From Mayamaea pseudoterrestris (lineage: Eukaryota): a DNA stretch of 64,000 nucleotides. The first letter of the stretch is position 1. Every line of letters begins with the position of its first letter. Positions 8,438-50,490 of the stretch are shown here, in pieces. The stretch lies in assembly GCA_027923505.1 (NCBI GenBank), contig BROI01000005.1, positions 558,001 to 622,000 of the forward strand, given 5' to 3'. The notes below the pieces were generated by a model. That model was not told where the DNA came from, did not search any database, and was given only the letters and a program-made list of their open reading frames with translations. Both the position numbers and the translations under genes were made by a program.

Positions 8438-8838
8438 TGTCACAATGACGATCTAGTCCAGTCGCTTGACGCGAACCTAGACGTCGCCGGGGGCGAACGA
8501 GCATAGTACTCGAACCTCTGTTGCGGTACCAGAAAAGACATCTACTCACAACTACGTCATTGAAATATTGCATGTGTGCCAGCCGCAGGCACGATTAAAC
8601 AAGATTAGTATTCACTATCGTGAATGGTCTTGAAAGAGCCATCTGATCAATTGCTCTTTCTCGACCGATCGTAAATCAACTCACTTTCTAGAGAACTGCT
8701 TAATCAACTAGCGTTTTGTAGGATAAGACCCCTGTAGGATAAACCAAGGTAAAGGACTGATCATCCCGCTCACTTGGAAACCGACTACAGAGGGTGAGGA
8801 ATCGTTGCAGCCGTACGAACTGGAACTGCATTGTGTCA
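8438..8838 (+). repeat. 5' LTR of element C
   Basis: Direct repeat of 15121-15521 with 4 substitutions. Confidence 0.97.
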
Positions 8839-9087
8839 GATCACACAGTCTTGGTCTTTACAATCAACTCTCTCGGGCGCTGGTGACGACCACTCCCGTC
8901 GTTTCGTTGCACACTACATTGGCAGCGGACATCCCTCGTTCATTTCCTGTCCGAGGCTTCAATCTACACTAGTCCGGCAGACGGAGGGATTGAAGACCGA
9001 GTCGAATTGCAAGCATCGCTCGGATAGAATCGACTTCCTCAATTATTCTCGCGGTATATATTCATCCCGTACCAATCAATCAACAAC

Positions 9088-10893
9088 ATGACCGTCGTCG
9101 AAGATGATCCTCCCGACGGACCCAATGTCACGCAAGATGACGCGGAAGACAACTCGCTCGCCGTCGGATTGAAAAGCATTTACAAGCTGAAGACCGTCAA
9201 CAACGACAAGTTCATGAAGCTTCCAGTCATCGTCGCCATCAAGTCACTCCTCCCGGACGGACGCCTACTCACGGAGCCATTCCTAATGCTGACCATCAAG
9301 GACATCGAGTCGGTACTGAAGGAATCCAAAACGCACATCACGGTTATTCGAACCATTACCCGCCTTCGTCAATGGGCATCGGAAGAGCACGAACTCAAGG
9401 AATGGGCGACGCTCACATTCGCAGCACTCATCAAAGCGACCGAATCGCCCGAAGAGTCTCTATTCCAAAGCGACATGAGTCGGATTCAACGAGTCAGCTC
9501 GACGGACGTTCCAGAGAAGTCCGAGGCCGAGAAGTACAAAGCTCGCGTCCGAGTCGACACCAAAGCATACACAGAGTTCAAAGACGAGTACAAATTCCGT
9601 CAATGGTGGCTCAAGACGTTCGCAACGGCCAAGAACCAAGGCATCGAGCGAGTCTTTGATCCGGATTTCAACCCGACAACGCTTTCGCCCGAAGATCTCG
9701 AGGTATTCAAAGCGCAAGAAGCCACAGCATTCGACATCATCACTTCATACTGCAAAGTCGCCAACTGCATCCCGATCATTCGTCGCCACAAGGACGGGTC
9801 GGCCCACGAGTGCTTCAAGGAAATGCACAAGATGTACTTGACGGGCAAGAACGCCGAACGCGCAGCGCAGCGAGCCGAGTCGAGAGTTCGCGACATGAAA
9901 CTGACGAACAACCACGGCAGCACGTACACTGCGTGGTTCACTCAATGGGAGAATGCCTTGCTCGATTACGAAGATTATACCGGCGAAACAGTCCCCGACG
10001 CGACGCGCAAGAAGTGGTTGTCCGAATCGGTTCGCTGGAACGACGCCTTTCGCCAAGAAATCAGTTCGGCGAGTCGTATCCTCAACGCGCAAGGTCAAGA
10101 TCAAAGCTTCGAAGACTGGTACAAGCAGCTCATCGAGTTCGCTCGCGATACCGACGACGTCAAAGCGGCACGCAAACGCCAAATGAAGATCCACCAATCC
10201 ATCCAACAAGCGAGTACTCCACCGACCGGAGGCACTCCACCGACTAGCGGCAACACTCCAAGCAGCAGCCAAGGCGGAAACGGTCGTGGAAATGGCAGCG
10301 GACGCGGAACCGGTCGCAGTTCTGGACGCGGCGGTGGACGTGGCGGCCGAGGTAACTTCGGACGAGGTGGTGGACGTGGACAGTGCACCAATCCTTCTGC
10401 GGCATCGAACCGTCGAGTCGAGCTGGATGTATGGTTCTCTTGGACGGAGGAGCAACGCGAAGCTCACAAGGCAGAAACTCGCTGAATCCGAGAAGCGGAA
10501 TGTGCGCGCCTGCAGCTGAACGCAAGCCAAGCCAGCACGAACAACACTAATACACCACCAACTCCACAAATTCAGCTTCCACCGGCGAATACGACGGCGA
10601 TGTCAACTATGTCAGCGATTACTCAGCCTACAGTCGGAACTACACCAGCACGTGGAACCGCCATGCGCGCGTTTCAGTCTCAGCAACAAGGCTCGATCGC
10701 TCAAGGAAGCCAGCCATCTACTCCACCAGTGTATCAAGCACGAGTCGGCGACGTTACATACAACATGTATCGTGCCAACGCAACCAACGTCACGCGTCGT
10801 TCTACAAACCATGTCGCTACACATAATGCCACGCAGAGCGCTTATGGGTATACTCGACAAACTCATATGTACCGTGCAATGGACTCCGTCTGA
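9088..10893 (+). CDS. Gag of element C (frameshift near 10480)
   Basis: Long ORF after the 5' LTR with a CoDi gag-like core (FRQWWLKTFATAKNQGIERVFDPDF) and an RGG-rich nucleocapsid-like tract. Confidence 0.8.
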
Positions 10894-13800
10894 TGTTCGC
10901 GACACTCTTGCTGAGACGTCGACATGACTCATCCGACTTCCGCCAATATGATGCAAGGACCTTGCATTCGAAACGATTCCAATTCGGATTCCCCCGGCAG
11001 GGGCACCGGAACGACAGAGAACGGAAGTTGGCGGAGCATTGTCCATTCACGGTCCAGAACGGTTTGGTCCATTTGAAGATGCATCATTTCACCGACGCTG
11101 AGTTCGACACGTTGCCGCACGTTGTCATGACAGCAGACACGCCTTGGGATCCGTCAAAGTACGATGGAGACCTTAATGACGATTCAATCCAAGCGGAAAT
11201 TGAAGCCGCGACGGACGATCACGAAGCGCCAACACTACTAGTCAACAACACCCAAGTCAACGGAAACGCGCAAGACGAATATCCCGAAGACCTTTCAGTC
11301 GAAACACTCAACGTCGTCTCATGGAATGGACTCGAAACCCACGAGTGGGAGCACTTCAGCGACGAGTCGGACCCTATGCAGGTCGAAACCGAGGGTCCAT
11401 CCGAGCGCATTGCCGACATTGTACCCGACGACGCTTCTTACAACACGAACCCACAACAGGATGACATTTCACTACCCTCACTAGTCTCACGCGGAACCAT
11501 ATCAACATCCGGATCAAGCCATGCTCAGAACCCCAACGACGCAACGTTCGAGTACGAAGACACTGCCGGGGAAATGTACGATCCGTACGAGCTGCAGGTC
11601 AATGCCGCAATTGTAGAAGCTGGAGGCAATCCATATTCTGGACTAGCCGGCCGACCGGCACGCACTGTGATTCCTACACGACCAGATTACCAAATGCTTC
11701 GTCCCAACTTCGGATTTCTACCCACCGATCGTATCAAGGAGACTCTCAAGAACACTACCCAATTCTACCGCGCCGAGCAACGTTTCCCTCAGCGACGCCA
11801 TTTGCGTACTCATTTCCCGGGTGCGAATGTTTGTCGACTACCTGAAGAAGTTGCCATGGACACACTATTCTCCGACACACCCGCACTCAACGATGGTATT
11901 CCTGGACACGCCGGATGCCAAGCAGCGCAACTCTACGTCTGCATGCAGAGCCGATTGATTCGCGTCTACCCGATGGCGAACAAGGGACAAGTTCCGTCGA
12001 CGCTCATGCAGTTTATCAACGATTGCGGTGCTCCACTCGGTCTAATCTCAGACGGAGCCAAGGAAGAAAACAGCCTAGCGATTCGAGAAATCGAACGCCA
12101 GTTTATGATCCGTAAGCACTGGGTCAGCGAACCGGAAAACCAACAGCAGAATCCAGCGGAACGCGTTATCGGCGACGTCGAGCGCACTGTCAATGTCAAC
12201 ATGGATCGGACCGGATCGCCTGCACCAACCTGGTTGCTATGCACTCTACACATCGTAGCTCTACTCGCCCTCATGTCCCAGTCACGTCTCGGTGGCATGA
12301 CCCCATATCAAAAGGTATACAACGAAGTACCCGATATCTCTGCCTACCTCAACTACCACTGGTGGCAGCCCGTTCGATACAGCGCAAACTCTACATCGCT
12401 CAACCAAACCAATGAGCGCGCTGGACGTTTCGTCGGGGTAGCTGATAACGTCGGTGATGCTCTAACGTACTGGGTCTTGGACGAGGAAACACATCAAGTT
12501 GTCGCCCGAAGCATTGTAACGGCTCGTCGAGACGATCTTAATCCAAACATCCGTCTTGATTTACCACAAGTCGAAGCTTCTCCCGAAGGCGACATGTTCG
12601 TATACACCGAAGGTGGACTCCAAGAGAGCTTCCAACTCGGCAACCAAAGCTCCGAAGAAGAGGGGCTACCCACTGATGAACCCGTTCCTACTGAAACGGC
12701 CGACGACGGACCCGAGTTCTACTTCGGAGATGAACCATTCGTCGGAAGCAGTCCCTACCAGCGGCCGCCATCAGCCCGTCCTCAAGCGCATCCACGCGGA
12801 CAAATCGATTTACTACCTGCATTCTCACCTGAAGAACTTGTCAATCAAACGTTTACTTGGCATACTCAGGATGGGGAGCCCATGCGAGCCGAAATCGTTC
12901 GCAAGCTCGAAACCATGGACGCAGCCAACCATCATAACATCAAGTTCCTACTCAAAATCGGCGAAAACGAAGCTGAAGAAGTCATCGACTACATCCGACT
13001 CTGCGAATTGTTCGAGAAGGACCAAGCAGCAAAGGTAAACGATCCTGAACACAACTGGACGTTTAAAGCAATCCTATCGCACGAAGGGCCACTCACAAAG
13101 CAATCCGACGGATGGAAAGGCTCCATGTACAACATCAAAGTCGTGTGGGAAGACAACTCAACGACTTGGGAGCCATTGAACGCTTTAGCACGCGACGACA
13201 TCATTTCCTGCGCTCGCTACGCCGAGGCGAACGGACTACTCAATAAGAAAGGCTGGAAGTTCCTACGCGACGCAGCCCGACGCGCACGTATCGCCCGTCG
13301 AACCGTAAACCAAGCCAAGCAACGACGCAGCATTCGACACAAGTTCGGCGTCAAGGTACCTCGCGATCCAAAGGAAGCTCGAAAGTTCCAAGAAGAACTC
13401 CGGCACACCAAATGGACCGACGCGGAGAAGGTAGAGCTGTCAAGCCTGTTCGAATACGACACCTTCATTGATCTCGGATTGAATGCCGCGCCTCCCGAAG
13501 GCTATCAAAAGATTCGCACTATCTGGGTCTACGACTGCAAGCAAGACTTTCGTCACAAGGCTCGGATGGTTGCTGGTGGACACCTTACTGACCCTGTCGA
13601 CGATTCATACTCGAGCGTCGTTTCACTCGAATCGCTGCGCCTAGCGCTGGCGATAGGGGAGTTGAATGGACTCACTCCCATGGTAGGCGACATCGGAAAT
13701 GCTTACCTCGAAGCCAAAACCAAAGAAAAGATTTACTTCATCGCTGGGCCTGAGTTCGGCGACTTGGAAGGCCACACACTCATCATCTACAAAGCACTTT

Positions 13801-15189
13801 ACGGCCTACGCACAAGCGGAGCACGATTCCACGAGCGGCTCGCGGACGCGCTACGAGCGGAAGGCTTCAAAGCCTCGTACGCCGATCCAGACGTTTGGAT
13901 TCGCGATGCTGGCCATTGTTACGAATACATCTGCACTTACGTCGACGACCTTATGGCAATCATGATTGACCCGGGCGCATTCTACGACATTCTTCGCAAC
14001 AAGTACAAGTTCAAGCTCAAGGGCGTCGGATGCCCAGAGTACCATCTAGGCGGCGACTTCGGACGCGACCCTGACGGAACACTATTCTGGGGCACCAAGA
14101 CCTACATCACCAAGCTTCTAGCCAACTACGAGCGTACATTCAACGGACCACCACAGACAGCGTAAAGCTCTCCACTCGACTCTCACGACCACCCGAACTC
14201 GACCAGACGTCCCTGTTAGGGCGGACTCAAGATCTACCAATCGTTTGTCGGAGCCCTTCAGTGGGCGATCACCCTTGGCCGTTCGATATCTGCAGTGCCA
14301 CCGCCCCTGCCTGTCACGCGGACAGCCTCGCATTGGACACCTCGACCGAGTCAAGCGTGTATGCGGCTACCTTCGCAAGTTTCCCGAGGCAGCCATCCGC
14401 TTTCGCACCCAGTGGCCGCAGAACGAAATCATCTTCGGCGACTCACCAACCTATGACTGGCAACAAACCGTCTACGACAACCCCAAGGAAGAGGTCCTTT
14501 CACTCTGGCCAAAACCAAAGGGCAAGACAGTTCGCCTTACTACCCTCAAAGATGCCAACCTGATGCATTGCAAAGTCACCGGCAAAGCATGCACTGGAAT
14601 CCTTCACTTCATTCAGCAGACTCCGTTCAAGTGGTTTGCCAAACTTCAAGATACCGTCGAACACGCGACCTTTGGCTCTGAACTCATGAGCGGGCGCGTT
14701 GCAACCGACCATATCCTAGGCATACGCGCGTCACTCATGGCAATGGGTGTTCCCATCGAGTCCTCTTCATGGCTACTCGGTGATAACCAATCAGTCATCA
14801 CGCAGTGTACAGTGCCTACATCCACACTCACCAAGCGCCACAATGCCCTCGCATATCACCGTATCCGATGGTGTGTAGCAGCCGGAATTATCAAGTTCGT
14901 CAAGATTGCCGGCAAGGAAAACGCTTCCGACGCGCTTACCAAGTACCTACCCTACATCGACGCATGGCCCCTACTCAAACCATTACTGTTCTGGCGTGGC
15001 GAAACCTTGGATCCTGGAGAACTCGAATTCTACCTTATGGACCCGTCACTGCCTCAAGGGGAGCCGACTCCAGGGGAGCTCATTGAGCTTACACCTGTCC
15101 TGGCACACCTACAAGGGGAGTGTCACAATGACGATCTAGTCCAGTCGCTTGACGCGAACCTAGACGTCGCCGGGGGCGAACGAGCATAG
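10893..15189 (+). pseudogene. Pol of element C (degraded protease, integrase, RT, RNase H; frameshifts near 14160-14300)
   Basis: VAMDTLFS, LISDGAKEE and SEPENQQQNPAE (integrase); HKARMVAGGH, KALYGLRTSG and TYVDDL (RT); LLGDNQSV and NASDALTK (RNase H). The stop codon lies inside the 3' LTR. Confidence 0.9.
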
Positions 15190-15521
15190 TACTCGAACCT
15201 CCGTTGCGGTACCAGAAAAGACATCTACTCACAACTACGTCATTGAAATATTGCATGTGTGCCAGCCGCAGGCACGATTAAACAAGATTAGTATTCACTA
15301 TCGTGAATGGTCTTGAAAGAGCCATCTGATCAATCGCTCTTTCTCGACCGATCGTAAATCAACTCACTTTCTAGAGAACTGCTTAATCAACTAGCGTTTT
15401 GTAGGATAAGACCCCTGTAGGATAAACCAAGGTAAAGGACTGATCACCCCGCTCACTTGGAAACCGACTACAGAGGGTGAGGAATCGTTGCAGCCGTACG
15501 AACTGGAACTGCATCGTGTCA
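15121..15521 (+). repeat. 3' LTR of element C
   Basis: Direct repeat of 8438-8838, preceded by the PPT. Confidence 0.97.
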
Positions 15522-15563: not shown

Positions 15564-17804
15564 AACTCTTCCAGCTTCTCCTACAAGGAGTCAAATGGAA
15601 ATGATCAAGGAACCGGTTACCAACATTGTCGTCGGAAGCGTCAAACTTCGCTCATGCATGAAGACCCACCTCAAGTATTCTGGGCAGTCAGTCACCAACT
15701 CCATGGCAAATGGAGGCTGCAATGGTGCTTCCAGTGGTTTGCAGGCTAGCACTCCCATTGATGACATGCAAGCGAAAAGCCACATCCACCAGGTCAACAC
15801 CAAAGAAAGTGCCAAGGAGTCCGAGGAACTTGATTCCTACCAATTTGATTCCTCTCAAGCGCCCATTGACAATGGCATTCCTTATCCAGCTCTGGGTCCT
15901 TTGGTTGAACCGTCGCAAGCTACCAATATCAAGCCCAAGACGGTAACATTCGGAGGGCAAGATGTGCGATGATTTGTACAAGTTGCTGGTGAATTTATTG
16001 CTTTCAAACACTTGGAAAAGTACCAGGAAAAGTACCGGTATTTTGTTGAGAAGGGCATGCATAAGAATGCCTTGTCACAAAACCTTGTAGCTTACAGCGG
16101 AGGCGTCCGGTACGTACAATACATCAACGAAAACAGCCATTTGTATGTTATGGCATGCCAAAAGGACAAGAAACCTTTTGCAGAGAAGATTTACAACAAT
16201 TTGGTGAACTTTGGTTTTGTGTTCATCAAGCAAATCGATTCTGATTATGAATTCCTTGTTAACACTGATGGTATTATTGTGGTTATGGCGCATCTACGCC
16301 AGTACGAGCATGTGCAGATTGCGGAGGACAATAGTAACAGTAAGCAAGATTAAACTATGAGTGGAAGTTGGAGGTTGGGTGGGTACATGATTGTTTTGAT
16401 TTGCAGTGGGTCTACCAAACCATTCTTTGCCGCAAACAGAGTAAAGTATTACACGAGAATAGTGAGCACCTGGAATCACATAGCAATAGTTTATTTGTGT
16501 CTTTATATGAAGTACAGTAGCTGCTTGAATTGGTGAAGAGCTGCAACTCATCGAGGACGAGAAGCTGCTGCCGTAGTACATAATCTGACCATGTCAACGT
16601 TGGTAATGGCAAGACAGGAGAACAATGTGGTGCGCCTACCACAGAACGAGCATAATATTATTATGTAATACATATTCCATCATGTACACTTCCAAGCTCA
16701 CTTGCTATAATCATGCAGAATGGGAAATTGCATCCACTCAAGCTTGTGGTTACGATGCAAGCAGCAATACGTACTATGATATTCATCTACTGTTTGATCT
16801 ACTCGTTAAGGAATGTAAGGGAATAAGAACAATCAATGCCATCGACTACAGATAGACCAAACCAACCTGCTGCACTGCACATCATGGTTGTGCGCTAATG
16901 AGCTGATTGCGGTGAGGTTTGCAGCAGCCTATGATCGTCCAATCATCATCATTCCGGGCTGGCAGGGTATAGCACTTGGCACACAGATCCTTGTCTCCCC
17001 TTGCTGCAATTGGCCAATTCTGTTTGATGCATTTGGGCACCTGCAAATTACGAACAAAGGCGAAGGTGGTAGTGCTATTGTGGGGTTGGCACGGTATAAA
17101 CTGCCATGTCTTAGAAGAAATTTTGCATTTGCGGCAAGTCCTCTCGCAATCATTCTTGTCTTTTACAACTGGAGACTCAAGTTCAATCAACATCAGATTC
17201 TGCTCCTGCTCTCCCTGAGGGTGCGGCTGGGCTTGCTGCATGCCTGGCGCGCTTAATTTATGGGCACCATGCTGATTGCCTGATCTAGCTGCTGGCCTGG
17301 CCACTTGAAAAGTCTGCCCAGAGCAATGAGCAGTCCTGTCCATCGCTCCAGTTGCATTGGGAGCAGGCGCGGGTCCATTCAAGCCATTGACGTTTCTCCA
17401 GGCGCGCCATTGGTTGATGTACTTGAGACGTTTTGCTGTTTCTTTGCCAGGCAAACCATCGTCATTGACAGAATTGTCGTTTTCTGAGCATTCATCCCAG
17501 TTGATGGTAGAATCACTAATGTGGCCACTCGAATCATCCCAGTTGTTGGTGGAATCACCATCCTTGTCCTCCGAAGTGTTGTCATCATCGTCACTATCGT
17601 TATTGAAAACGGCGGCAGGTTTGTGAACCAACAACTGACCATCCGGCATGAACAACTGAGCATTTTTCCCAGCGAGAAAGGCAACATCAGTAGCAATTCC
17701 AGCTTCTGTGTCACGATGTAATGGTACAGCGTGGTGTTTGTACTCTAAGAGCCATACTAGTGACTGAAACAGTACTTATATACATGCAGTGGCAGTGTAT
17801 GGGC

Positions 17805-17851
17805 AACGTGAATGGTTCGCCGGTGCTCTGGTTCGATTCCGGGGTGCGTTA
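17805..17851 (+). ncRNA. tRNA-like RNA without anticodon arm in TRIM-1 5' LTR (putative self-encoded RT primer)
   Basis: AACGT pairs with GCGTT. T-arm GCTCTGG-TTCGATT-CCGGGGT. Exactly 12 nt between T-loop and discriminator A17851, TTTT at 17854-17857, TATA-like TTATATA about 25 nt upstream. Confidence 0.75.
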
Positions 17852-17892
17852 GCTTTTGCCTTTCTGCATGCGAGTACTGCTACGTCGTGTTA

Positions 17893-17906
17893 TGGTAACG
17901 TCACCC
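17893..17906 (+). other. Primer-binding site of TRIM-1
   Basis: TGGTAACGTCACCC directly abuts the 5' LTR; TGG is complementary to CCA. Confidence 0.85.
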
Positions 17907-18203
17907 GTCCAATGTCGGACCTGGTGTGATTGTGGTTCGAGTCTCGAAAAAGCAAAAATCGAGACCGCGTTGACTGGCAGCTGAGGTGTGTCCCTGCAAT
18001 GTCGCAGGGAACGTGTCATCGTTTGGGAGTAATGACTCCGGCGATAAGTGTCACACCGAAGCACGTAAACCCAGGGCGCGAGAGCATGACTCATAGAGTA
18101 AGGGGGATGTCACGATGTAATGGTACAGCGTGGTGTTTGTACTCTAAGAGCCATACTAGTGACTGAAACAGTACTTATATACATGCAGTGGCAGTGTATG
18201 GGC

Positions 18204-18250
18204 AACGTGAATGGTTCGCCGGTGCTCTGGTTCGATTCCGGGGTGCGTTA
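18204..18250 (+). ncRNA. Second copy of the tRNA-like RNA (TRIM-1 3' LTR)
   Basis: Identical to 17805-17851. Confidence 0.75.
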
Positions 18251-19809
18251 GCTTTTGCCCTTTGCATGCGAGTACTGCTACGTCGTGTTATTCTGCGAGC
18301 TGCCCTACAACATTGTTCAATAGTCGACGCTGGTTGTCCAAATTCTTGTCGCCTGGACTAGGAGCCTCGATGACTCCCCTATCCCCCAGTAGGTCACGCT
18401 GGCTAGCCAGCTGGAAAAGTGGGAGCATGTCAAAACCTGCTTTGTAGAATGTCAGCATAGCTTGAAGAATGCCTTCGATCTCAGCAAAATACTTCTTGCG
18501 CTCATCATCTTCCTCAGCAGCAATGGCTATCCATCACCACAACTCTCGCTTATACGGCGGCGTCATTCCAAGAAGCAGCCATTGGTACACAAAGAATAGC
18601 TGTCATCTTCTTCGACAGCTGTAGTGCGACGAGACTCGCAATCGCGGCACGACTGTTTCCATTGGTCATCATGTCCCAAAACATTCAAGACGTCTTCATC
18701 AATGTCCAAATACTCCTCGTAAGAGCTGTTGGAGTTGTCACCACCTTTTACTGGTACATGGACCGTACTTGTGGGGAATCTGTTCTCGAATGTGTTGGTG
18801 GTAGCTCCAGCCGCCAAAGTGGTTCCAGCAGCAGCTTCAATATTTTGAGCTCCAGCAGCAACATTGTCTGCAGCTGCTTTCTCAGCGTGAAGATGCCGCA
18901 ATTTTTTGATCCCATGTTCCTCCGCGTGGGGTGGAACTTCCGTCTGACCGCCAGCGTAATCCTCCTCCTCCTCTTCTTCGTCTTTGTCTTCTTCTTCTTC
19001 GTCTTCTTCTTCTTCGTTGTCATCATCTTCTTCTTCCTCCACAGTGGCAGGAAGGAAAGCAGTAGGAGCATTGCTGTTAGCGCGAGCTGCAGCTGGCACC
19101 GTTGTGCTGGCGCGAGCTTCTGCAGATGCTGTCGCGTCGGCGCGAGCTGCAGCTGGCACTAGAGAACTGTCGGGAGGCATAGGAGACTCATCAGGGATGG
19201 CATCCATGGTAGTAGTATTATTAATCAAGTCTTTGTTACGGTGTCGGGTCGTCATGGTGAAGTAGTAACAGTAACTAGGCGCATGTGGTGTGCGGTGACT
19301 CATGGCGAAGTGTGGAAGCGACAAGTTGGGTGGACGCCGCCCGGGTACCGGTACAAGTACCGAGCGTCAGTCATTGCAATTTGACGATCGAATATTATCA
19401 ATATAGGATACCTTTTGAGAATCACCCAACGTCAAGAATTCAATCGTGAAGGATGGCTTTCGTGACTCAATGGTTTTCGATCACAGTGCGCCTTTTGAGT
19501 CGACCAGCATGTTGTATTATTTTCGTCCGTGACGAGGAAAATTCAACACGTCGCTTTAGCCGTTGCCTTTACCATTTAGAGTGACCATCTACGTGGTTCC
19601 CCTGCATTAATTTTGGGTGTCACAACCCTTAAATAGTGTATGGTAGCATTCACAATGATGCAATGACAAGATGAAGAGCGACATGAGGAGAAATACAAGC
19701 CAGCGCAGTGCATGTTGCCACAAATATTGCCCACTATTAAGCTTATACGTTAATGATCACAATTCCTTTCACTTGCGAGCATGCGCCACCCACTACGGCT
19801 CCTTTCCTC

Positions 19810-24168: not shown

Positions 24169-24402
24169 TAAAAGAAACCTGCTAGCTGAAGTGCAAGTTA
24201 GGTGTCAATCAAGCTCGCCAGGGAGTAGACGCTGGAGAGTCCTTTAGTTGTAGCAATAAGCTCACAATTTTAGATTTGAGTTGCTTTCAAACAAGTTGTC
24301 GTCGAGCGTAAGTGCGGGACTTTGATTCCAAGAGTCATAGGCTGCCGCCAGGGGACTAAACTAAAGTCCTCGGGTAGCTCGTCACCAGATAGACTTCTTT
24401 GA
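24169..24402 (+). repeat. 5' LTR of element D
   Basis: Direct repeat of 31727-31960. Confidence 0.97.
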
Positions 24403-24414
24403 GGTTATGAGCCC
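24403..24414 (+). other. PBS of element D, complementary to the anticodon arm of initiator tRNA-Met
   Basis: GGTTATGAGCCC is the reverse complement of GGGCTCATAACC, the half-tRNAiMet priming mode known from copia and Ty5. Confidence 0.88.
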
Positions 24415-24909
24415 AAACAGCTATCGCGAACCTTGACAAAACCTGATTGTCAAGCTTAACAAGAGAAGATGCATTCCATACGAAGAAGCAACCGGGCGTA
24501 ACAAGAACTTTCGCGAATTTTTGTCACCATCCGATCGTCTGGATTAAGCCCCTCGCCAAGGGTAATATGGCCCGTGTCAAGCGTCACTGATCCTGTACAG
24601 TCTAACAGACAGTACCAAGCAAGCAGTCGCGTCAACACTTTGATTACTGAGCGAGTCCCTTAAGTGGAAACTTTCGCCAAAAGTGTCAATGCCTCCCAAT
24701 TATTGCAAGTTGGTCATTTAAGAAGGCTGCCTAAAATAGGCTTAAATAAGAAATTTCGAGTATCCAACGGAAGAAAATTCCTGGCGTGCTCGCCCACGGT
24801 TTGTCGAGTTGCCACCATGAGGCAAACGAAACCAAAACAAGCAAGCAAACAGCAAGCGTTTTAACCAAGTTAACAAGCAGCAATCAACCACCCTACCGTT
24901 ACCATCAAG

Positions 24910-25629
24910 ATGTCCAAGTCCACCGAAGCGTTGGAGAGGGAGCTCAAGGAGCTAGCGAAGCTTGTAGCGCAGCTACAGAAGGAGAAGGAGGACGGCGCCT
25001 CAACGGCAATGACTTACCAGGAGCTCAAGCAGTTGGCCCGCAGCAAGGCGCAAGAGTTGGCGAAGGACTGGAATCTTACTAGTCGCACTGGAGCTGCATT
25101 CCAAGCCAGTACACCTGGAGAGACGCAGTTTCGCCTCGGCAATAACCAAGGCCGAGGAGGCGGCAATGGAAACCGGAGCAATGCTAATAACCATCCTGCA
25201 CCGGCAGAAGGCGGATCCGAGCGGCAGACCTTTGCCGGAACAGAGAAGCTTTACTGTCGACGATGCCGACGCTGGTTGCCTGTGTCCAGTAACAAGGCAC
25301 ATGTAACGGCCGATCACCGCAGCAATCCAAACAACGGTGGCGGCAATAGCAGCAACAATGGCAATGGCTCTGGTGGATCCAGTCGCGGCCGCTCCCAGTC
25401 GCGCGAGCGGAATAACAGCGGCAATGCCAATGGTGGCGGGGGCGGTAACAACAACGGAAACAGTAACGGCGGCAGAGGCAATGGAGGCAGAAGGCGCCGC
25501 AACAGGAACAATGGTGGGCGCGGTGGCCAGGGCGGCAATAATCAAAGCGCCCAGCAACCGACCCAGTCGACAACCACGTCGAGCGGTTACCTCTCTAGCT
25601 TCTCCATGAATCTGTTCCCCGAAATGTGA
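24910..25629 (+). CDS. Short Gag-like protein of element D
   Basis: CRRC...H...H zinc-knuckle-like motif followed by a G/N/R-rich tail; first ORF after the PBS. Confidence 0.75.
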   Translation: MSKSTEALERELKELAKLVAQLQKEKEDGASTAMTYQELKQLARSKAQELAKDWNLTSRTGAAFQASTPGETQFRLGNNQGRGGGNGNRSNANNHPAPAEGGSERQTFAGTEKLYCRRCRRWLPVSSNKAHVTADHRSNPNNGGGNSSNNGNGSGGSSRGRSQSRERNNSGNANGGGGGNNNGNSNGGRGNGGRRRRNRNNGGRGGQGGNNQSAQQPTQSTTTSSGYLSSFSMNLFPEM

Positions 25630-26676
25630 AGGTGTTGGACGCTACTCATGTTCTTTATTATGGTATTGAATCTGAGTGCGTCGGGTTTAAGATTTGCAAG
25701 TCTCACAAGTGTTCCAGCTCCTTACCAGGCAGCAGGCCAAGCTTTCGAGGCAGTTCTTCTTGGAGCCGGTCGATTTATCCTTGCTTTGGCAGCTCTTCTG
25801 AGCCAGTCCCCATGGTTGCAGTGTTTCTATCAAGTTGTTGCAAGTTTCAACCGCAATGGCTTGCTCCTGCTCCAGTGGATTGCCCATTGGACGAGTTGGA
25901 TGGCGTTTTACTTCATACGTCTCCTCGATTCAGCGCAAGTGGAAACCGCGTTCCTCGGTGTCCTTTCCAAGCTCCAAGAACCTTGTTACTATGTTCTCCA
26001 AGCACTGTGGTTCGTTCTCAAAATGAATCCGGTGTCCCAAATTCTAGGCAAGCTCCTCGAGTGGTTAGCTAAACCGTTCAGGATGCGAGCCGATGTGTCC
26101 CAGTGGACATCTCCACGCGTCTTTCCAAAGCGCTGGATGGTCCTCGATGCCGTCATGCTCTCTAATCATGCGGCCATGGAAGTGTCACAAAGATTGGTGC
26201 GCTACACACGATTCGTGCACCTATTCTGTCGATATCAAGTCCGTCTGTCCACATGCGTCTCTTCCTGAGTGCAAGGCGCAAGAAATGGAAGAAGGCGCAA
26301 GTTGCTATTCGAGAGGAAGCCAAGCTAGTCGGCGAGCAGCTTTAACGCAGCCAAGCAGATGCATGCTCGAGTTGCGCCAAAAGCCATGGAATTTGACGGC
26401 TAACATGCTTTGATCACCAAGATTTACCAAGTCTTTTGGAAGCGCAAGCGCAATGGTTAGCAATGCTCCCACCAGTGCCAAGCAAAGTCGGCGGACAACA
26501 GAAGCAAGATGAGGAAGCTGCACTAGACCCTCTCCAAGTCTGTTTCTTTGTGCCTGCCGAGCAAGAGTCTCTACCCCAGGAAGCTTTCTTTGATGCTGTT
26601 GGCGATATAACAGACATTGAAGACGTCTTCTTCGAGGTTGAGCAAATTCCCAGTCCTGTACCCAGTGATGATCCGT

Positions 26677-26820
26677 CCCCGCTCGCGTCCCTGACCGAGT
26701 CCAAGACCAAGATCAAGACCAAGGCCCTGCTCGTGTCCCTGACCGAGTCCAAGACCAAGTCCAAGTCCAAGGCCCCGCTCGTGTCCCTGACCGAGTGCAA
26801 GACCAAGTCCCAGTCCAAGT
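26677..26820 (+). repeat. 3 x 48-bp coding tandem repeat in element D
   Basis: Units start at 26677, 26725 and 26773 and encode variants of PLASLTESKTKIKTKA. Confidence 0.92.
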
Positions 26821-28875
26821 CCTATTCCCAATGCCAGGCTCTTATGCCGGCGCCAAGCAAGCTTCTCGAGGAGGTTCTCCACGGCCATGAAGGCGCATCA
26901 ACGATAGCTCAAGCTCTTCTCTCCACGGTTGATGAGTCCTTTAACTTGTCGCCGCCCTATCCAGGGAGCCTGTCGCCGCCTCTTCAATTGCGGTCATCAA
27001 GCTTGGGCAAGGAAGACTATAGCAATGCATTCAATGCTCACGTCTTTGACCCAGACTTTGTCATGGCGTTGCATTCGAGGCCAAGTGTTCAGGGCGGTCA
27101 GGAGGAGCTAATCTCCGTCGTCCTAGATACTGGTTGCTCCGTTGCTCTGACGTTTTGTGAGGATGATTTTGTTGAGTTGTCAAGGACCAAAGGCTTTATC
27201 AATACCGCTAATGGCAAGTCTGCTATCACGGGGCACGGCAAAGTGCGTTGGATGTTTATCACGGAGCAAGGCGAGAATGTGGAGGTCATTGTACCAGCGC
27301 ATTTGTGTCCTGCCTCCAACCAACGCCTGCTGTCGCCTCAAGGCTATGCTCTATACCACGGTTTAAGCCAAGATGAGATCCAATATGGCGGTTCACATTC
27401 ATTCTTCTTCATGAACCTGAAGGACCAAGATGGCAAGTTTCACAAGTTCCGTTGTCCCATTCATCCGCGCTCGAACCTTCCACTAGCGGTTGCCCGCTCA
27501 AGCGAGTCCTGCACGTGTGCCGAAGCCAATTGCACAAGTTGCTTCAGCCATGGCTACATTACTGTGGCTGAGGAGACAAACCAGAATCTAACTGGCAGTC
27601 AACGTGAGCTCCTACTGTGGCATCAGCGTCTCGCGCACCGAGCAATGAACTATGTTCAAGACTTGTTTATTCCGAAGGTCGAGCCCAGCTCCTTGCCTCC
27701 TGCTGAGCCACCGCCGGGTCCGTGTATCAAACCGACTCACAGCGGTGCTCGCACATGTCCTGCTCCTAAGTGTGCTGCCTGCCTACTAGCCAAGCAGCGG
27801 CGCAGGCGAGAGCTCAAGGAGTGCGCAATCTTGTTGATGGCGCTCTGATGGTGGATGATTTGCAGCCAGGTGACCCGTCTCTGTTGATCATCAGTCGTCA
27901 GTCTCGGTAGACGCCCGACGTCTCGAGGGCGGGAATCCACAGGAATGAAATTTTGCGGCGGTACCATTTACGTGACCATTGTTCCAGAGCTATCTTCTGT
28001 ATCCACCAAGTCAGTTTTGCGACGGCGATACCATCAAGGGCAAGCGGCTAGTTGAAAAATACTTTGACGAAGCCCTGCCTGGACTAAAGATCAAAGCCTT
28101 CCATGGCGACAATGGCATTTTCAACTCAGCCGAGTTTGAGGCCGACTTGTTGCGCCAAGGGCAGACGATTAAGTTCAGCGGTGTCGGTGCACATCATCAA
28201 AACGGTGTTGCAGAACGTTCCATTCAGATTGTGGTAGAGATGGCGAGAACGATGATGCAGCATGCTTCAATGCACTGGCCGTCGGAATTCGAGGAAAGTT
28301 TGTGGCCCTTCGCCATGGACTATGCCTGCTGGTTGTGGAACAACATGCCGTCCCGAGGAGGTTTAACACCTTTGGAAGTGATGTCCGGTGTCTCCGGTGG
28401 AGGTGCAAACCTTAGCCGTGCAAGAGTTTGGGGTTGTCCAACCTTCGTGTTAGATCCAAAGCTACAAGACAAAAAGAAGATCCCGAAATGGCGCCCACGC
28501 TCCAGGCGAGGCCAGTTTCTGGGCATGTCTACAGCTCATTCATCAACCGTTGGTCTCATCCGGAATCTGGTTACTCAGCACGTGTCGCCACAATTCCATG
28601 TGGTGTATGATGAGCTGTTCCAGACGGTGGCAAACCCTGGCTTTGACGACGCAGACCCACTATGGATCCGCCTGTTTCGGTCAAACCGAGAGCTTTACCT
28701 CGACATGGAGGAGCTCAAGGCAGACTTGTATCCAGCGCAGTTAAGAGAGGACTACTGGACTGAGGAAGATAGCAGGTTGCACACGAAAAACAGCAACCAG
28801 AGCGATACCTTTACTTGTCATAGTGCATGGTGCCTTGTATGCAGCATATAGTACACTAGCAGACGGAAAAGTAGC

Positions 28876-28931
28876 AGCGTGTTTAGAGGTGATATAGCCG
28901 GTTATCCTTGGTTCGATTCCGAGGTGCGCTA
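28876..28931 (+). ncRNA. tRNA-like RNA without anticodon arm in TRIM-2 5' LTR (putative self-encoded RT primer)
   Basis: AGCGT pairs with GCGCT. T-arm CCTTGG-TTCGATT-CCGAGG. 12 nt to discriminator A28931, TTTT at 28933-28936, upstream ATATAG TATA-like element. Confidence 0.75.
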
Positions 28932-28975
28932 CTTTTAACGGCATAGTGATACTACTTTCTGTTGCATACCTGCTA

Positions 28976-28988
28976 TGGTAGCGTCCCT
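28976..28988 (+). other. Primer-binding site of TRIM-2
   Basis: TGGTAGCGTCCCT abuts the 5' LTR. Confidence 0.85.
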
Positions 28989-29345
28989 ATCGAGAGATCT
29001 GGACTGAGGCTGCTGGTTCGAGTTGCGATCGAATCAAGCGAAGAAAAAGCAAAAATTCACTGGTTGCACGGGTTTGTCACGAACGAACGATGGGGAGTCG
29101 CGGACCCTGGGGAGTGCACAAAGATGCGCCGAGCCCGAAACGCCGCAGGAAAAACTGAAAAGTGACATTCCCCCGCGAGACGAAAATGCCAGCTGAAACG
29201 GAAGACGAGTTAGCACTATGACGCGCAAAGCTAGGGGAGTAGCAGGTTGCACACGAAAAACAGCAACCAGAGCGATACCTTTACTTGTCATAGTGCATGG
29301 TGCCTTGTATGCAGCATATAGTACACTAGCAGACGGAAAAGTAGC

Positions 29346-29401
29346 AGCGTGTTTAGAGGTGATATAGCCGGTTATCCTTGGTTCGATTCCGAGGTGCGCT
29401 A
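29346..29401 (+). ncRNA. Second copy of the tRNA-like RNA (TRIM-2 3' LTR)
   Basis: Identical to 28876-28931. Confidence 0.75.
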
Positions 29402-31726
29402 CTTTTAACGGCATAGTGATACTACTTTCTGTTGCATACCTGCTAAAGAAGCTGAGTTTCACCGCAGAGACAAGAGCACAAGTGCAGAAGCTACCGACGA
29501 GTTGTATACCGACGTTGACGTTGTGCCGAGCCAAGAGCCAGCCCCAGAGGGCGGCCAGCCAACTGAAGCACCAACTGATGCGCCAGCTCACGGTTTAGCT
29601 AATGTACAAGCTCCTATTGCCGTTGACTTCGTCCCTGACGAGGAAGTTGACGAAGAACCCGAGCAAGAGGACGAGTCTGCAGAGGCTCCTTCCTTGCAAC
29701 CAAGTGCCGATCCACAGTCTGACGAAGAGACTGTCCTAGCCAACAACCAGTCACTGCACCGCCGTTCCAAGAGGAAGACCAAAGGTCAGCGCAAACAATT
29801 GCGGTTTGACGAAGAGTTCCATCTTGCAGAGCGCGCCGTCTTGACGGAAGAAGGTTGGGTGATCCGAGCCAAGAACTCCAAAAGGGTTGGTGCGATTGTG
29901 TATCCCATAGAGAAGGACGATATTATAGGCCAACGCATGGATTGGACTGCCTCAGCAAGTTCTGGTTCATTAGCGGCGCTCTTCACTGAATATGAGCGAC
30001 TGTACACCGATCCTTACTCAATGGAGATTGACGATTCACATCCGTTCTCGTATGCCGCCAAGGTCGCCGACGCAGATTCTCCTACTTACCGGGACATTTG
30101 CCGAGCAGACGAGGAAAGCCAAGCCAAGTGGATGACTGCTATGCAGGGCGAAATGGACGCGCTCTTTAGCAAAGGAACGTTTGAGTGGATTCACAAATCA
30201 AAAGTTCCCAAGGGCAAGCAAGTCATTCCAACAACCTGGGTCTTCAAAGTGAAGCGAGCCGTCGACATGAGTATTCGCAAGTTCAAAGCGAGATTCTGTG
30301 TCAGAGGCGACCGCCAAGATCTTAAAGATGAAGATGGCGCTGAGCCAAGCGTTTACGCTCCCGTTGTCCAATGGTCCACCATAAGACTGATGTTTAACCT
30401 GATGATTGCTCACAAGCTCAAGTCGACCCAGATTGATTTCCGCAATGCTTTCGTTCAGTCTGATTTGCCAGAGCCGATTTACATCCAAGCTCCAGCGGGT
30501 TTGAATGACCCTAGCAAGAAGGATCACGTTCTTAAGGTCTTGAAGAGTTTGTATGGCGACAGGCGCGCACCCCAGTTATGGTTCAAGCATTTGTGCAAAG
30601 GATTGGAGATGCAAGGATTCAAGCCGTCTCAGCACGATCCGTGTCTCTTTATCCGCCACGATTGCGTCTTCTTTGTTCATGTTGATGACGGTTGCTTTGT
30701 CTCCAAGTCGCAGAAAGTGATTGACAAGTGCATCGAACAACTGATCAAGGATGGCTATGATTTGGATCCCGAGCGCGGCGATTTAGCTGGTTTTCTAGGC
30801 ATCAAGATTGAGGAGGAGAAGGACAGCCAAGGCAAAAGCAATGGCAACCTCGTCCTTACTCAAAACTCACTCATTGAGCGCATCCTTAAAGTGCTCAAGC
30901 TTTCTGATTCTAAAAAGACCAAGCTCATCCCCGCAGCCGAAGCCTTAAAGGCATGCAAGGAGTGTCCGGCCCACGACGAAGATTGGAATTACAGATCCGT
31001 CGAAGGCATGATGCTCTATCTAGCGCAGAATACAAGACCAGACATTGCAATGGCGGTTCACCAAGCGGCACGATTTGCTAACGATCCACGCGACGTGCAT
31101 TCCAAGGCTCTCTTCTACATTGGTCAGTACCTACTAGCTACACGAACCAAGGGAATGATCCTGCGCCCGAACCGTAATTCAATGCATTTGGACATGTATT
31201 GTGACGCCGACTTTTCCGGTCTATTCAAAGTGGAAGACCGTGACGACCCAAGAAGCGCCCGCTCTCGAACTGGTTACATTATCACGTTAGGAGGAGCGCC
31301 AGTGCTCTGGGCAAGCAAGCTCCAGACGGAGATTGCGACTTCTACCTGCGAGGCCGAGTACATTGCGTTATCTACAGGAATGCGATCACTGCTACCAGCC
31401 CGCTGGATTTTACAAGAAGTTACTAGCATGTTGCAGTTGCCGTCAAAGCAGCGCTCTGTCATTTCAACCGTTTGGGAAGACAATGATGCAGCTTTGATTC
31501 TGGCCACAACAGACCCACCCAAGATCTCGTCACGAACCAAGCATTTCAATGTGAAATATCACTGGTTTAGGAGTCACCTTAAGAAGGGACAGATTGAGTG
31601 CAAGCGAGTCGATACCAAGGAGCAGTGGGCAGACATTATGACGAAGCCACTGGACCGTATCCGACTGGAAGCAATCCGTAAGAAGATCATGGGATGGTAA
31701 GACCTTGTTGCTCACTTGAGGAGGAG

Positions 31727-31960
31727 TAAAAGAAACCTGCTAGCTGAAGTGCAAGTTAGGTGTCAATCAAGCTCGCCAGGGAGTAGACGCTGGAGAGTCC
31801 TTTAGTTGTAGCAATAAGCTCACAATTTTAGATTTGAGTTGCTTTCAAACAAGTTGTCGTCGAGCGTAAGTGCGGGACTTTGATTCCAAGAGTCATAGGC
31901 TGCCGCCAGGGGACTAAACTAAAGTCCTCGGGTAGCTCGTCACCAGATAGACTTCTTTGA
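31727..31960 (+). repeat. 3' LTR of element D
   Basis: Direct repeat of 24169-24402. Confidence 0.97.
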
Positions 31961-50099: not shown

Positions 50100-50490
50100 T
50101 TGTTACGTGTATTGCTTTTGCAATCCTAGATACTAGTTTATCAAAAAGTTAGGATGCAGCAGTCGCTTGTTGGAGTAAAGTATGTTTAGCGACTGCGATA
50201 GAGACGGCCATCGTCGCCGTTCCCGTCGATCCGGAAAAGCCGGCTGCCGCAAGGACAGGCGGATACGATGACGCACGATATCTCAAATCCTTAACTCTCT
50301 ACTTTTTCGCGTGTCGGCGCGTGCGCTGTTGAACTTGCGGATCGCGAACGACGTGCGTTATCATGAAGATCCGTCCTCAACTTGCAGGGCCGCACGCCTC
50401 GTCACACGACGAAACCATCAAAACGGACCTGCATCTTGCCTTGTCTATTGGATATCGCATTCCACTCTATACGCAACCATCAAGATCATC

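What the first reader, a model, noticed from the sequence alone, without database searches (positions are those of the whole stretch)
17805..17906. TRIM-1: LTR tRNA mimic matches its own PBS over 13 bp with one bulge
The mimic 3' end GGGGTGCGTTA plus CCA has reverse complement TGGTAACGCACCCC. The PBS about 40 nt downstream reads TGGTAACG(T)CACCC: 8 perfect pairs, one bulged T, then 5 more pairs. The genomic trailer after the discriminator is GCTTTT, so the CCA needed to pair with TGG is not templated. That implies tRNA-type 3' processing.
Basis: partly seen in the sequence, partly recalled or inferred. Interest (0 to 1): 0.85.

Follow-up and report, generated by a model that had tools for sequence, protein, structure and literature searches.

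The report
Diatom mini-retrotransposon with tRNA-like LTRs
A tiny, recently moved LTR retrotransposon in a diatom carries a tRNA-like piece in its repeats whose end partly matches the element's own primer-binding site, so it may supply its own primer, but a host tRNA could not be ruled out.

Summary
The element is real. It is a 582-bp TRIM at 17709-18290 with 184/183-bp LTRs, a 5-bp target duplication, a PBS and a PPT. An empty-site allele occurs in public contigs. Each LTR holds a degenerate tRNA-derived module with a canonical T arm, followed at once by the element's only T4 run. This is the Helenus/TRIMp3 layout (Kojima 2024), here in a pennate diatom, a host group that paper does not list.

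The claimed match to the PBS exists but is weaker than stated. The "8 perfect pairs" include three from an untemplated CCA, so only 5 templated bases pair in a row. The bulged alignment holds for TRIM-1 only.

An ungapped register holds for TRIM-1 and for a second, diverged family, TRIM-2 at 28770-29445. That register is 8 Watson-Crick pairs, one G.U, 1-2 mismatches, then 3-4 pairs. The two modules differ at only 2 of their last 22 bases. The PBS carries the compensating change at both.

No host genome, tRNA set or RNA reads could be obtained, so the primer is unresolved. My odds are 0.42 for a host initiator-type tRNA, 0.35 for an LTR-encoded primer and 0.08 for a cis U5-PBS stem. The remainder is chance or other.

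The parts
17704..17708 (+). Left copy of the target-site duplication, TTCTG
   Evidence: The same 5 nt lie at 18291-18295. The empty-site joint in contigs shares 5 letters.
17709..17892 (+). 5' LTR of TRIM-1 (184 bp, TGTCAC...GTGTTA)
   Evidence: Direct repeat. 182 identical columns of 184 against the 3' LTR. The LTR end at 17892 is confirmed by a contig that continues into a different flank (table 7).
17773..17851 (+). Degenerate tRNA-derived module. An A-box-like TGGCAGTGTATGG lies at 17790-17802.
   Evidence: ARAGORN finds it only at the lowered threshold -ps85, not at -ps95 or default. No Rfam tRNA hit.
17827..17843 (+). T arm and B box: TCTGG TTCGATT CCGGG
   Evidence: Read from the sequence. 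The 22-mer GGTTCGATTCCGGGGTGCGTTA has 4 matches at up to 3 mismatches in the window and 0 in 100 shuffles.
17844..17851 (+). Acceptor 3' strand GTGCGTT plus discriminator A
17854..17857 (+). T4 run: candidate Pol III terminator and R/U5 border
   Evidence: It is the only run of T>=4 on the + strand of the element, once per LTR.
17858..17892 (+). U5-like 35 nt, partly conserved with TRIM-2 (GCAT..TACT.CT)
   Evidence: Alignment.
17893..17907 (+). Primer-binding site TGGTAACGTCACCCG
   Evidence: It starts directly after the LTR. Pairing pattern. It is unchanged in the contigs of runs X1, X2 and X5 that cover it.
17946..17959 (+). Purine-rich 14-mer GAAAAAGCAAAAAT, shared exactly with TRIM-2 (29043-29056)
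   Evidence: blastn and alignment. Function unknown.
18095..18107 (+). Polypurine tract AGAGTAAGGGGGA
   Evidence: It lies directly upstream of the 3' LTR.
18108..18290 (+). 3' LTR of TRIM-1 (183 bp), with a second copy of the module ending at 18250 and T4 at 18253-18256
18291..18295 (+). Right copy of the target-site duplication, TTCTG
28770..29445 (+). TRIM-2, the second family. LTRs at 28770-28975 and 29240-29445 (206/206 identical). Module at 28850-28931, T4 at 28933-28936, PBS TGGTAGCGTCCCT from 28976, 4-bp TSD AAGA. It is nested in copia element B.
   Evidence: Removing the element plus 4 nt restores a 1014-aa frame.

Best explanation
TRIM-1 is a Helenus-type TRIM (TRIMp3) of a pennate diatom. 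It is a 582-bp non-autonomous LTR retrotransposon whose LTRs carry a degenerate tRNA-derived module.

Most likely mechanism (inferred): the module supplies an internal Pol III promoter, with an A-box-like motif and a canonical B box. The T4 run right behind it is the terminator. The module would then be the R region and the following 35 nt would be U5. Transcripts that read through the first T4 and stop at the T4 of the 3' LTR would be the genomic RNA.

Reverse transcription by a copia-type partner (5-bp TSD) starts at the PBS TGGTAACG.... The primer would be a CCA-ended host tRNA with A73 and U72, which is the initiator-tRNA type of PBS also used by rust-fungus Helenus.

On this reading, the partial complementarity between the module's 3' end and the PBS arises because both are images of the same kind of tRNA acceptor end. 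It would not mean that the module is the primer.

Shown: the element's anatomy, its mobility, the conservation of the module, T4 and PBS in two families, and the complementarity.

Inferred: Pol III transcription, the R/U5 assignment and the identity of the primer.
For: Anatomy and mobility:
- LTRs, TSD, PBS and PPT are all present.
- A contig joint skips exactly 587 nt (582 + 5) and shares 5 letters. It is seen in 2 of 4 runs laid, X1 and X2, on a haplotype that differs at 27 letters plus a 14-nt insertion over 17414-17701.

Layout matches published Helenus:
- That paper's supplement holds 13 internal regions or lines with tggtagcg. One passage shows an LTR whose tRNA-like T arm and acceptor are followed within a few nt by a T4 run, about 30 nt before the LTR end. 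That is the same layout.
- TRIM-2's PBS begins with the same 8 letters, TGGTAGCG.

PBS conservation:
- Positions 1-10 are conserved between the two families except position 6.
- This includes C10, which is mismatched to both modules.
- A perfect complement would be more stable: -27.7 versus -21.9 kcal/mol for TRIM-1 and -25.0 versus -19.8 for TRIM-2.

Weak tRNA-likeness of the module:
- No Rfam tRNA hit.
- ARAGORN finds it only at lowered thresholds.
- The fold z-scores of -0.73 and -0.80 are not significant.

Other points:
- The T4 is the only T>=4 run in each element, as expected for an R/U5 border.
- Kojima looked for module-PBS complementarity in his Helenus families and reports none.
Against: - The two modules differ at only 2 of their last 22 bases (17842 G/A and 17849 T/C). 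The PBS has the complementary change at exactly the two facing positions, 13 and 6. If module and PBS evolve independently this is unexpected. My estimate is p about 0.01-0.06, from n = 2 families.
- TRIM-1's PBS has A at position 6 and so needs U71 in its primer. The iMet-type PBS of rust Helenus and of TRIM-2 has G there, which implies C71. TRIM-1's own module has U71.
- The module's T loop, TTCGATT, is of the elongator kind. From recall, eukaryotic initiators carry A54 and A60. Simple descent of the module from the initiator tRNA is therefore not evident.
- No host tRNA could be examined, so the proposed primer is hypothetical.
- A T4 directly behind the module would also stop most Pol III transcripts before the PBS.
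Confidence: 0.42

Rival explanations
1. LTR-encoded private primer. Pol III transcribes the module and stops at T4. The precursor is trimmed like a pre-tRNA to the discriminator A (17851 or 18250) and receives CCA. The resulting small RNA anneals to the PBS of TRIM RNA and primes minus-strand synthesis by a partner's reverse transcriptase. The pairing is 8 Watson-Crick pairs, one G.U, an internal loop, then 3-4 pairs. Read-through transcripts serve as the template.
For: - The register is fixed in advance by structure: the discriminator lies 8 nt after the T stem, and the PBS starts at the LTR end. About 1e-4 of window positions score as well.
- Compensating changes occur at both sites where the two modules differ.
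- Cognate pairs are more stable than crossed pairs. PBS1 gives -21.9 kcal/mol with its own module and -15.6 with module 2. PBS2 gives -19.8 with its own and -19.0 crossed.
- The T stem also keeps pairing through change: C-G becomes T-A, and T.G becomes C-G.
- The module, T4, U5 motif and PBS are the conserved part of LTRs that are otherwise unalignable. The two families have different TSD lengths, 5 and 4 bp, which implies different integrases.
- TGG requires an untemplated CCA, and the trailers are GCTTTT and CTTTT.
- The 56-nt TRIM-2 module folds at MFE into a 5-bp acceptor stem plus a 6-bp T arm.
- In Ty1 and Ty3 the PBS is not rewritten from the primer (passage of PMC5371799), so residual mismatches could persist.
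- From recall: mascRNA-type tRNA-like RNAs are cut by RNase P and RNase Z and receive CCA.
Against: - Only 5 templated Watson-Crick pairs lie in a row.
- C10 of the PBS is conserved yet mismatched in both families.
- In TRIM-1 the tRNA-like fold is 5.7 kcal/mol above the MFE, and the competing fold extends the T hairpin.
- The 5' acceptor strand is ambiguous, with different candidates from ARAGORN and from my own inspection.
- There is no Rfam tRNA hit.
- Kojima reports no such complementarity in his Helenus families.
- No RNA evidence of any kind exists.
- The covariation rests on n = 2 families.
Confidence: 0.35
2. Cis structure. Within the genomic RNA, the module's 3' strand (R) pairs with the PBS 45 nt downstream. 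This would form a U5-PBS stem that masks or presents the PBS, while a host tRNA remains the primer.
For: The same complementarity and the same two compensating changes fit this reading. It does not need processing or CCA addition. From recall, stems that involve U5 and the PBS are common in retroviral leaders.
Against: - The pairing stops exactly at the discriminator / TGG border. That is expected for a CCA-tailed RNA but not for a cis stem. The next positions pair in TRIM-2 only (G-C, G.U) and not in TRIM-1.
- The stem would have to break the conserved T arm.
Confidence: 0.08
3. Chance resemblance. The PBS and the module are unrelated, and the match was found by looking at many possible alignments.
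For: Five templated pairs in a row are common: 60 (PBS1) and 77 (PBS2) of about 127,962 hypothetical ends in the window reach that.
Against: The ungapped score over 10-12 positions is reached by only 14 and 8 of 127,962 positions, and these counts include the elements' own sites. The match recurs in a diverged family with compensating changes.
Confidence: 0.05

Closest known systems
Helenus / TRIMp3 (Kojima 2024, Biology 13:119, PMC10886601; Results, Discussion and supplement passages read)
   Same: [quoted passage not shown]
- A T-run behind the tRNA-like part.
- A short U5-like tail, a PBS and a G-rich PPT.
- 5-bp TSD (TRIM-1) as in the Copia-mobilised fungal and plant families, and 4-bp TSD (TRIM-2) as in the animal families.
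- A PBS of the tRNA-iMet 3'-end type, which also occurs in rust Helenus (TGGTAGCG...).
   Different: - The host is a diatom. The paper lists fungi, six animal phyla and Selaginella, and its text and supplement contain no diatom or stramenopile words.
- The tRNA-like part is more degenerate.
- Kojima states that he found no complementarity between the LTR tRNA-like sequence and the PBS. Here there is such complementarity, with two compensating changes between families.
- Sequence homology to his families was not tested.
Cassandra (TRIM with 5S rRNA in the LTRs; known to me through Kojima's introduction)
   Same: A TRIM with a Pol III gene-derived promoter and terminator inside the LTR.
   Different: It carries 5S rather than a tRNA-like sequence. 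No 5S hit was found here. It occurs in plants.
Self-priming LTR retrotransposons of the Tf1/Tf2 type (recalled; seen only in the listing)
   Same: The element's own RNA supplies the primer. This is the closest functional analogue if the private-primer reading is right.
   Different: In Tf1 the 5' end of the genomic transcript folds back onto a PBS and is cut by RNase H. No CCA is involved and there is no tRNA-like gene. Here the PBS starts with TGG and the candidate is a separate, CCA-tailed small RNA.
Copia/Ty5-type half-tRNA priming
   Same: Copia element B in the same window (PBS GGTTATGAGCCC at 24403) pairs with the initiator-tRNA anticodon loop. Kojima describes this as the dominant type in fungal Helenus. 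It shows that initiator tRNA is used as a primer in this genome.
   Different: TRIM-1 and TRIM-2 use a 3'-end (TGG) type of PBS.
tRNA-like small RNAs that receive CCA (mascRNA type; recalled, no call)
   Same: A precedent that RNase P, RNase Z and the CCA-adding enzyme accept non-tRNA substrates with an acceptor/T-arm mimic.
   Different: These are vertebrate lncRNA products and have no link to reverse transcription.

Membership tests
TRIM (terminal-repeat retrotransposon in miniature) | Two short LTRs, a short non-coding internal region, PBS, PPT and a target-site duplication | tested here: met
   184/183-bp LTRs, a 215-bp internal region, PBS at 17893, PPT at 18095-18107 and TSD TTCTG. An empty-site joint skips 587 nt.
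Helenus / TRIMp3 | tRNA-derived sequence in the LTR with box A (TRGCY...YGG) and box B (GGTTC), as given by Kojima | tested here: met
   Box B GGTTCGATTCC within a 5-bp T stem. Box A is only partial: TGGCA...TGG at 17790-17802. ARAGORN draws cloverleaves only at lowered thresholds and Rfam gives no tRNA hit. The feature is met in a degenerate form.
Helenus / TRIMp3 | Transcription by RNA polymerase III from the internal promoter | not testable with these tools
   No RNA holder was listed, and the runs laid were contigs only.
Helenus / TRIMp3 | Sequence relationship to described Helenus families | not tested
   Only two passages of the supplement were seen. No library of these consensus sequences was available to a search tool.
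Genuine tRNA gene | A full cloverleaf recognised by tRNA models | tested here: not met
   ARAGORN at default finds 0 tRNAs in 64 kb. Rfam gives no tRNA hit at E<=10, even in the 111-nt searches.
Tf1-type self-priming element | PBS complementary to the first bases of its own transcript, with no CCA complement | tested here: not met
   The PBS starts with TGG in both families, and the complementarity lies at the 3' end of the tRNA-like module. The transcript 5' end is unknown.
Element with a self-encoded tRNA-like primer (no described family) | The module's 3' end plus CCA is complementary to its own PBS and co-varies with it | tested here: inconclusive
   The pairing is 8 Watson-Crick pairs, one G.U, 1-2 mismatches, then 3-4 pairs. 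2 of 2 module differences are compensated. Only 2 families were available, and the host tRNAs are unknown.
Cassandra | 5S rRNA sequence in the LTR | tested here: not met
   No 5S hit in the 2-kb Rfam scan at E<=10.

The most novel reading that the evidence does not exclude
These diatom TRIMs carry, in each LTR, a Pol III gene for their own primer. The product would be a tRNA-like RNA that ends at the discriminator A, receives CCA from the host, and anneals to the element's own PBS. Primer and PBS would then co-evolve as a private pair, independent of the host tRNA pool. This would be the first LTR retroelement known to encode a trans-acting tRNA-mimic primer. It could also let the element evade host 3'-tRNA-fragment silencing that targets the PBS.
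Probability: 0.35. Interest if true: 0.9.

Novelty: new variant of a known kind. Interest (0 to 1): 0.62.

Why it matters
All LTR retroelements need a primer. Nearly all borrow a host tRNA, and a few (Tf1) fold their own transcript back. A retroelement that carries a gene for a tRNA-mimic primer would be a third solution. It would link two things not previously connected: tRNA-like Pol III modules in LTRs (Helenus, Cassandra), whose function is unknown beyond "promoter", and primer choice.

The question is directly testable here, because two diverged families with compensating changes sit in one small diatom genome.

Even on the conservative reading, this extends Helenus/TRIMp3 elements to diatoms. 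It also shows a recent, hemizygous insertion inside an open reading frame.

Tried and rejected
- **Whole genome of the window:** none is held, so host tRNA 3' ends could not be listed.
- **tRNA genes in the window:** none.
- **Metagenome scan** for the module 22-mer (IUPAC R/Y): 1 hit, L001. It is a bacterial-looking tRNA-like stretch with an encoded CCA, not a TRIM.
- **Viral contigs:** 0 hits.
- **Sequencing runs:** 8 listed, all as Logan contigs, and no RNA holder listed. The laid contigs cannot show RNA ends.
- **Full-text search** for the PBS-implied primer ends and the PBS strings: 96 papers matched. By title, the 20 listed were unrelated, for example PCR primers (listing only).
- **Supplement of PMC4247016** (P. 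tricornutum small RNAs): 0 occurrences of the initiator-type ends. Only one 8.6-kB file is held.
- **Diatom TE paper PMC2806351:** no mention of a primer-binding site, tRNA or TRIM; the only "PBS" is the buffer.
- **Search for a printed diatom initiator tRNA sequence:** nothing usable in the listing.
- **Lauermann & Boeke 1994** (PMC44914): not held. I used the summary of the companion 1997 Ty3 experiment in PMC5371799 instead.
- **Earlier findings of this scan:** nothing by place, sequence (twice) or words.
- **A scripting error of mine:** the TRIM-2 PBS was one base off, and the imposed TRIM-2 T stem was one base off. One search corrects the first. For the second I use only the MFE lines.
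- **A rejected argument:** I first reasoned that the PBS is rewritten from the primer at each cycle, so mismatches would exclude the module as primer. I dropped this for Ty-like elements after reading the passage.
rejected, because it fails in TRIM-2.

Full report
**Anatomy**

Window 17709-18290 is a 582-bp terminal-repeat retrotransposon in miniature (TRIM).
- The LTRs are 17709-17892 and 18108-18290 (TGTCAC...GTGTTA). They share 182 identical columns of 184.
- They are flanked by a 5-bp duplication, TTCTG, at 17704-17708 and 18291-18295.
- The 5' LTR is followed directly by TGGTAACGTCACCCG, the PBS.
- The 3' LTR is preceded by AGAGTAAGGGGGA, the PPT.
- The 215-bp interior has no coding capacity.

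The host is a pennate diatom. A neighbouring sulfite oxidase gene has its best named relatives in Epithemia, Phaeodactylum, Amphora, Seminavis and Fistulifera, at 59-66% identity. Two copia elements with RVT_2 domains lie in the same window.

**Mobility**

I laid the Logan contigs of four coded runs on 17400-18600.
- Runs X1 and X2 each hold a contig joint that skips exactly 587 nt (582 + 5), with 5 shared letters. This is an empty site with one TSD copy.
- These two runs also hold a second haplotype of the left flank that differs at 27 letters plus a 14-nt insertion over 17414-17701.
- X5 holds a contig that runs across the left junction into the PBS. X7 holds only LTR sequence.
- Other contigs leave the LTR exactly at 17892 into unrelated flanks.
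- One further LTR copy covers 17749-17889 with 13 differences and one gap, and has no PBS.

The element is therefore a low-copy family with solo or diverged LTRs and a recent, hemizygous insertion. Removing it in silico lengthens an open frame on the minus strand from 297 to 354 codons.

**The tRNA-like module**

Each LTR contains TCTGG-TTCGATT-CCGGG (a canonical T arm and box B), then GTGCGTT, A, and two bases later TTTT.
- This T4 is the only run of T>=4 on the + strand of the element.
- The module is not a tRNA by standard tests. ARAGORN at default finds 0 tRNAs in 64 kb. Rfam gives no tRNA hit at E<=10 in a 2-kb search and two 111-nt searches.
- With lowered ARAGORN thresholds a 79-nt cloverleaf (17773-17851) appears at -ps85 but not at -ps95. 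Its acceptor stem has 3 Watson-Crick pairs, 2 G.U pairs and 2 mismatches.
The acceptor-plus-T-arm minihelix is 5.7 kcal/mol worse, at -9.0 versus -14.7 kcal/mol. The fold z-scores are not significant.

It is therefore a degenerate tRNA-derived module with an intact 3' half, not a defined 47-nt mimic.

**The complementarity**

Three of the "8 perfect pairs" are TGG:CCA. Five templated pairs in a row are common. 60 of about 127,962 hypothetical ends in the window do as well or better for PBS1, and 77 for PBS2.

An ungapped register is more telling. PBS positions 4-15 against module positions 73-62 read WWWWWUxxWWWW, where W is Watson-Crick, U is G.U and x is a mismatch. Only 14 of 127,962 positions score as well, and that count includes the two LTR copies and the PBS's own antisense. 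The register is fixed in advance by the T-arm geometry and by the LTR end. The match is therefore beyond chance, but it is a modest duplex. A perfect complement of the same 15 nt would give -27.7 kcal/mol.

**A second family**

A search for the module's 22-mer found a second TRIM at 28770-29445.
- Its LTRs are identical (206/206).
- It is nested in copia element B.
- Its TSD is 4 bp (AAGA). Removing the element plus 4 nt restores a 1014-codon frame, and removing it plus 5 nt does not.

The two families are unalignable over most of the LTR and interior. They share the following:
- the block GCCGGT...T arm...acceptor...T4
- a U5 motif
- TATGGTA(A/G)CGTC at the LTR/PBS border
- an exact purine-rich 14-mer in the leader

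ARAGORN draws an 83-nt cloverleaf for TRIM-2 already at -ps95. TRIM-2's 56-nt core folds at MFE into a 5-bp acceptor stem plus a 6-bp T arm.

TRIM-2's PBS pairs with its own module as WWWWWUxWWWxx. Only 8 of 127,962 positions score as well.

The last 22 nt of the two modules differ at only two sites: position 64 (G/A) and position 71 (T/C). The PBS differs in the complementary way at exactly the two facing positions: 13 (C/T) and 6 (A/G). The T stem also keeps pairing through change, with C-G becoming T-A. Under independent evolution I estimate this at p about 0.01-0.06. It rests on two families only.

**What is known**

Kojima (2024, PMC10886601; Results and Discussion read) described Helenus. 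[quoted passage not shown]
- Helenus is reported from fungi, six animal phyla and Selaginella.
- TSDs are 5 bp with Copia partners and 4 bp with Gypsy partners.
- The text and the held supplement contain no diatom or stramenopile words.

Supplement passages show rust Helenus interiors that start with tggtagcg. They also show an LTR whose tRNA-like end is followed within a few bases by a T4 run. That is the layout seen here.

He states that he found no complementarity between the LTR tRNA-like sequence and the PBS, and he concluded that the module does not prime. The diatom elements differ from his families on exactly this point. My searches for Helenus/TRIMp3 follow-ups and for self-priming with tRNA-like LTR sequences found no paper that describes an LTR-encoded primer (listings only).

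**Weighing the mechanisms**

Points that favour a host tRNA primer:
- The PBS is of the initiator 3'-end type. TGGTA implies A73 and U72, which from recall is a combination typical of eukaryotic initiators.
- TRIM-2's first 8 PBS letters equal those of the rust Helenus PBS.
- PBS positions 9-10 (TC) are conserved in both families, yet position 10 is mismatched to both modules.
- The module is a poor tRNA.
- The module-plus-T4 layout is explained by a Pol III promoter and terminator that define R and U5.

Points that favour the LTR-encoded primer:
- The register begins exactly at the discriminator.
- Both module differences are compensated in the PBS.
- TRIM-1's PBS needs U71. Its own module has U71, while initiator-type PBSs imply C71.
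- The module-PBS cassette is conserved across families that use different integrases.

I first counted the conserved mismatches heavily against self-priming, on the ground that a PBS is recopied from its primer. For Ty3, progeny PBS sequence is not derived from the primer tRNA (PMC5371799, section 2.2 passage). A cited Ty1 title says the same (Lauermann & Boeke 1994). That argument is therefore weak.

A cis U5-PBS stem would also explain the covariation. It would not explain why the pairing stops at the discriminator/TGG border.

**Verdict**

- Firm: this is a Helenus-type TRIM in a diatom. It is mobile, and its module-T4-PBS cassette is conserved.
- Open: the identity of the primer.
- My odds: host initiator-type tRNA 0.42, LTR-encoded primer 0.35, cis stem 0.08, chance 0.05, and other readings for the remainder.

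The decisive data are the host tRNA 3' ends, more family members, and RNA ends. None could be obtained here.

Noticed in passing
window 28770-29445: TRIM-2 is a second TRIM family with the same tRNA-like 3' half, T4 and PBS type. Its LTRs are identical (206/206) and its TSD is 4 bp (AAGA). It is inserted in the pol frame of copia element B. Removing it plus 4 nt restores a 1014-codon frame.
   Followed up: yes
window 24169-31960: Copia element B has 234-bp identical LTRs (TAAAAG...CTTTGA) and TSD ACCCG. Its PBS, GGTTATGAGCCC at 24403, is complementary to an initiator-tRNA anticodon stem-loop. This is half-tRNA priming as in copia/Ty5 and most fungal Helenus.
   Followed up: partly
window 8438-15521: Copia element A has 401-bp LTRs (397/401 identical) and TSD GACGT. 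Its LTR ends (TGTCAC...GTGTCA) and PPT resemble those of TRIM-1, so an A-like element may be TRIM-1's partner. The sequence after its 5' LTR, GATCACACAGTC..., is not a TGG-type PBS, and its primer is unknown.
   Followed up: partly
window 17946-17959 and 29043-29056; also 17933-17941 and 29013-29021: Both TRIM leaders share an exact purine-rich 14-mer, GAAAAAGCAAAAAT, at 54 (TRIM-1) and 68 (TRIM-2) nt into the interior. They also share a box-B-like TGGTTCGAG upstream of it. This could be a second PPT, a pairing partner of the U-rich trailer, or a remnant of a second tRNA-like piece.
   Followed up: no
window 28867-28875 with 28928-28936: In TRIM-2 the leader AAAAGTAGC can pair over 9 Watson-Crick pairs with GCTACTTTT, which spans the acceptor end, the discriminator and the T4 trailer. 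This is out of register with the tRNA-like acceptor stem. With the trailer included, this stem is part of the MFE fold.
   Followed up: partly
window 17414-17701 (contigs of runs X1 and X2): A second haplotype of the flank differs at 27 of 288 positions, carries a 14-nt insertion and lacks TRIM-1. This is very high allelic divergence for a region that is open in frame.
   Followed up: no
window 50311-51597 (+) and 51827-52939 (-): Two convergent genes each have a ferredoxin-dependent bilin reductase domain (Pfam E 4e-55 and 1e-36).
   Followed up: no
L001 740-822: A metagenome contig holds a tRNA-like stretch that ends in the same 22-mer as the TRIM modules, followed by an encoded CCA. ARAGORN does not call it as a tRNA. 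It looks bacterial or phage-like and is unrelated to the TRIMs.
   Followed up: partly
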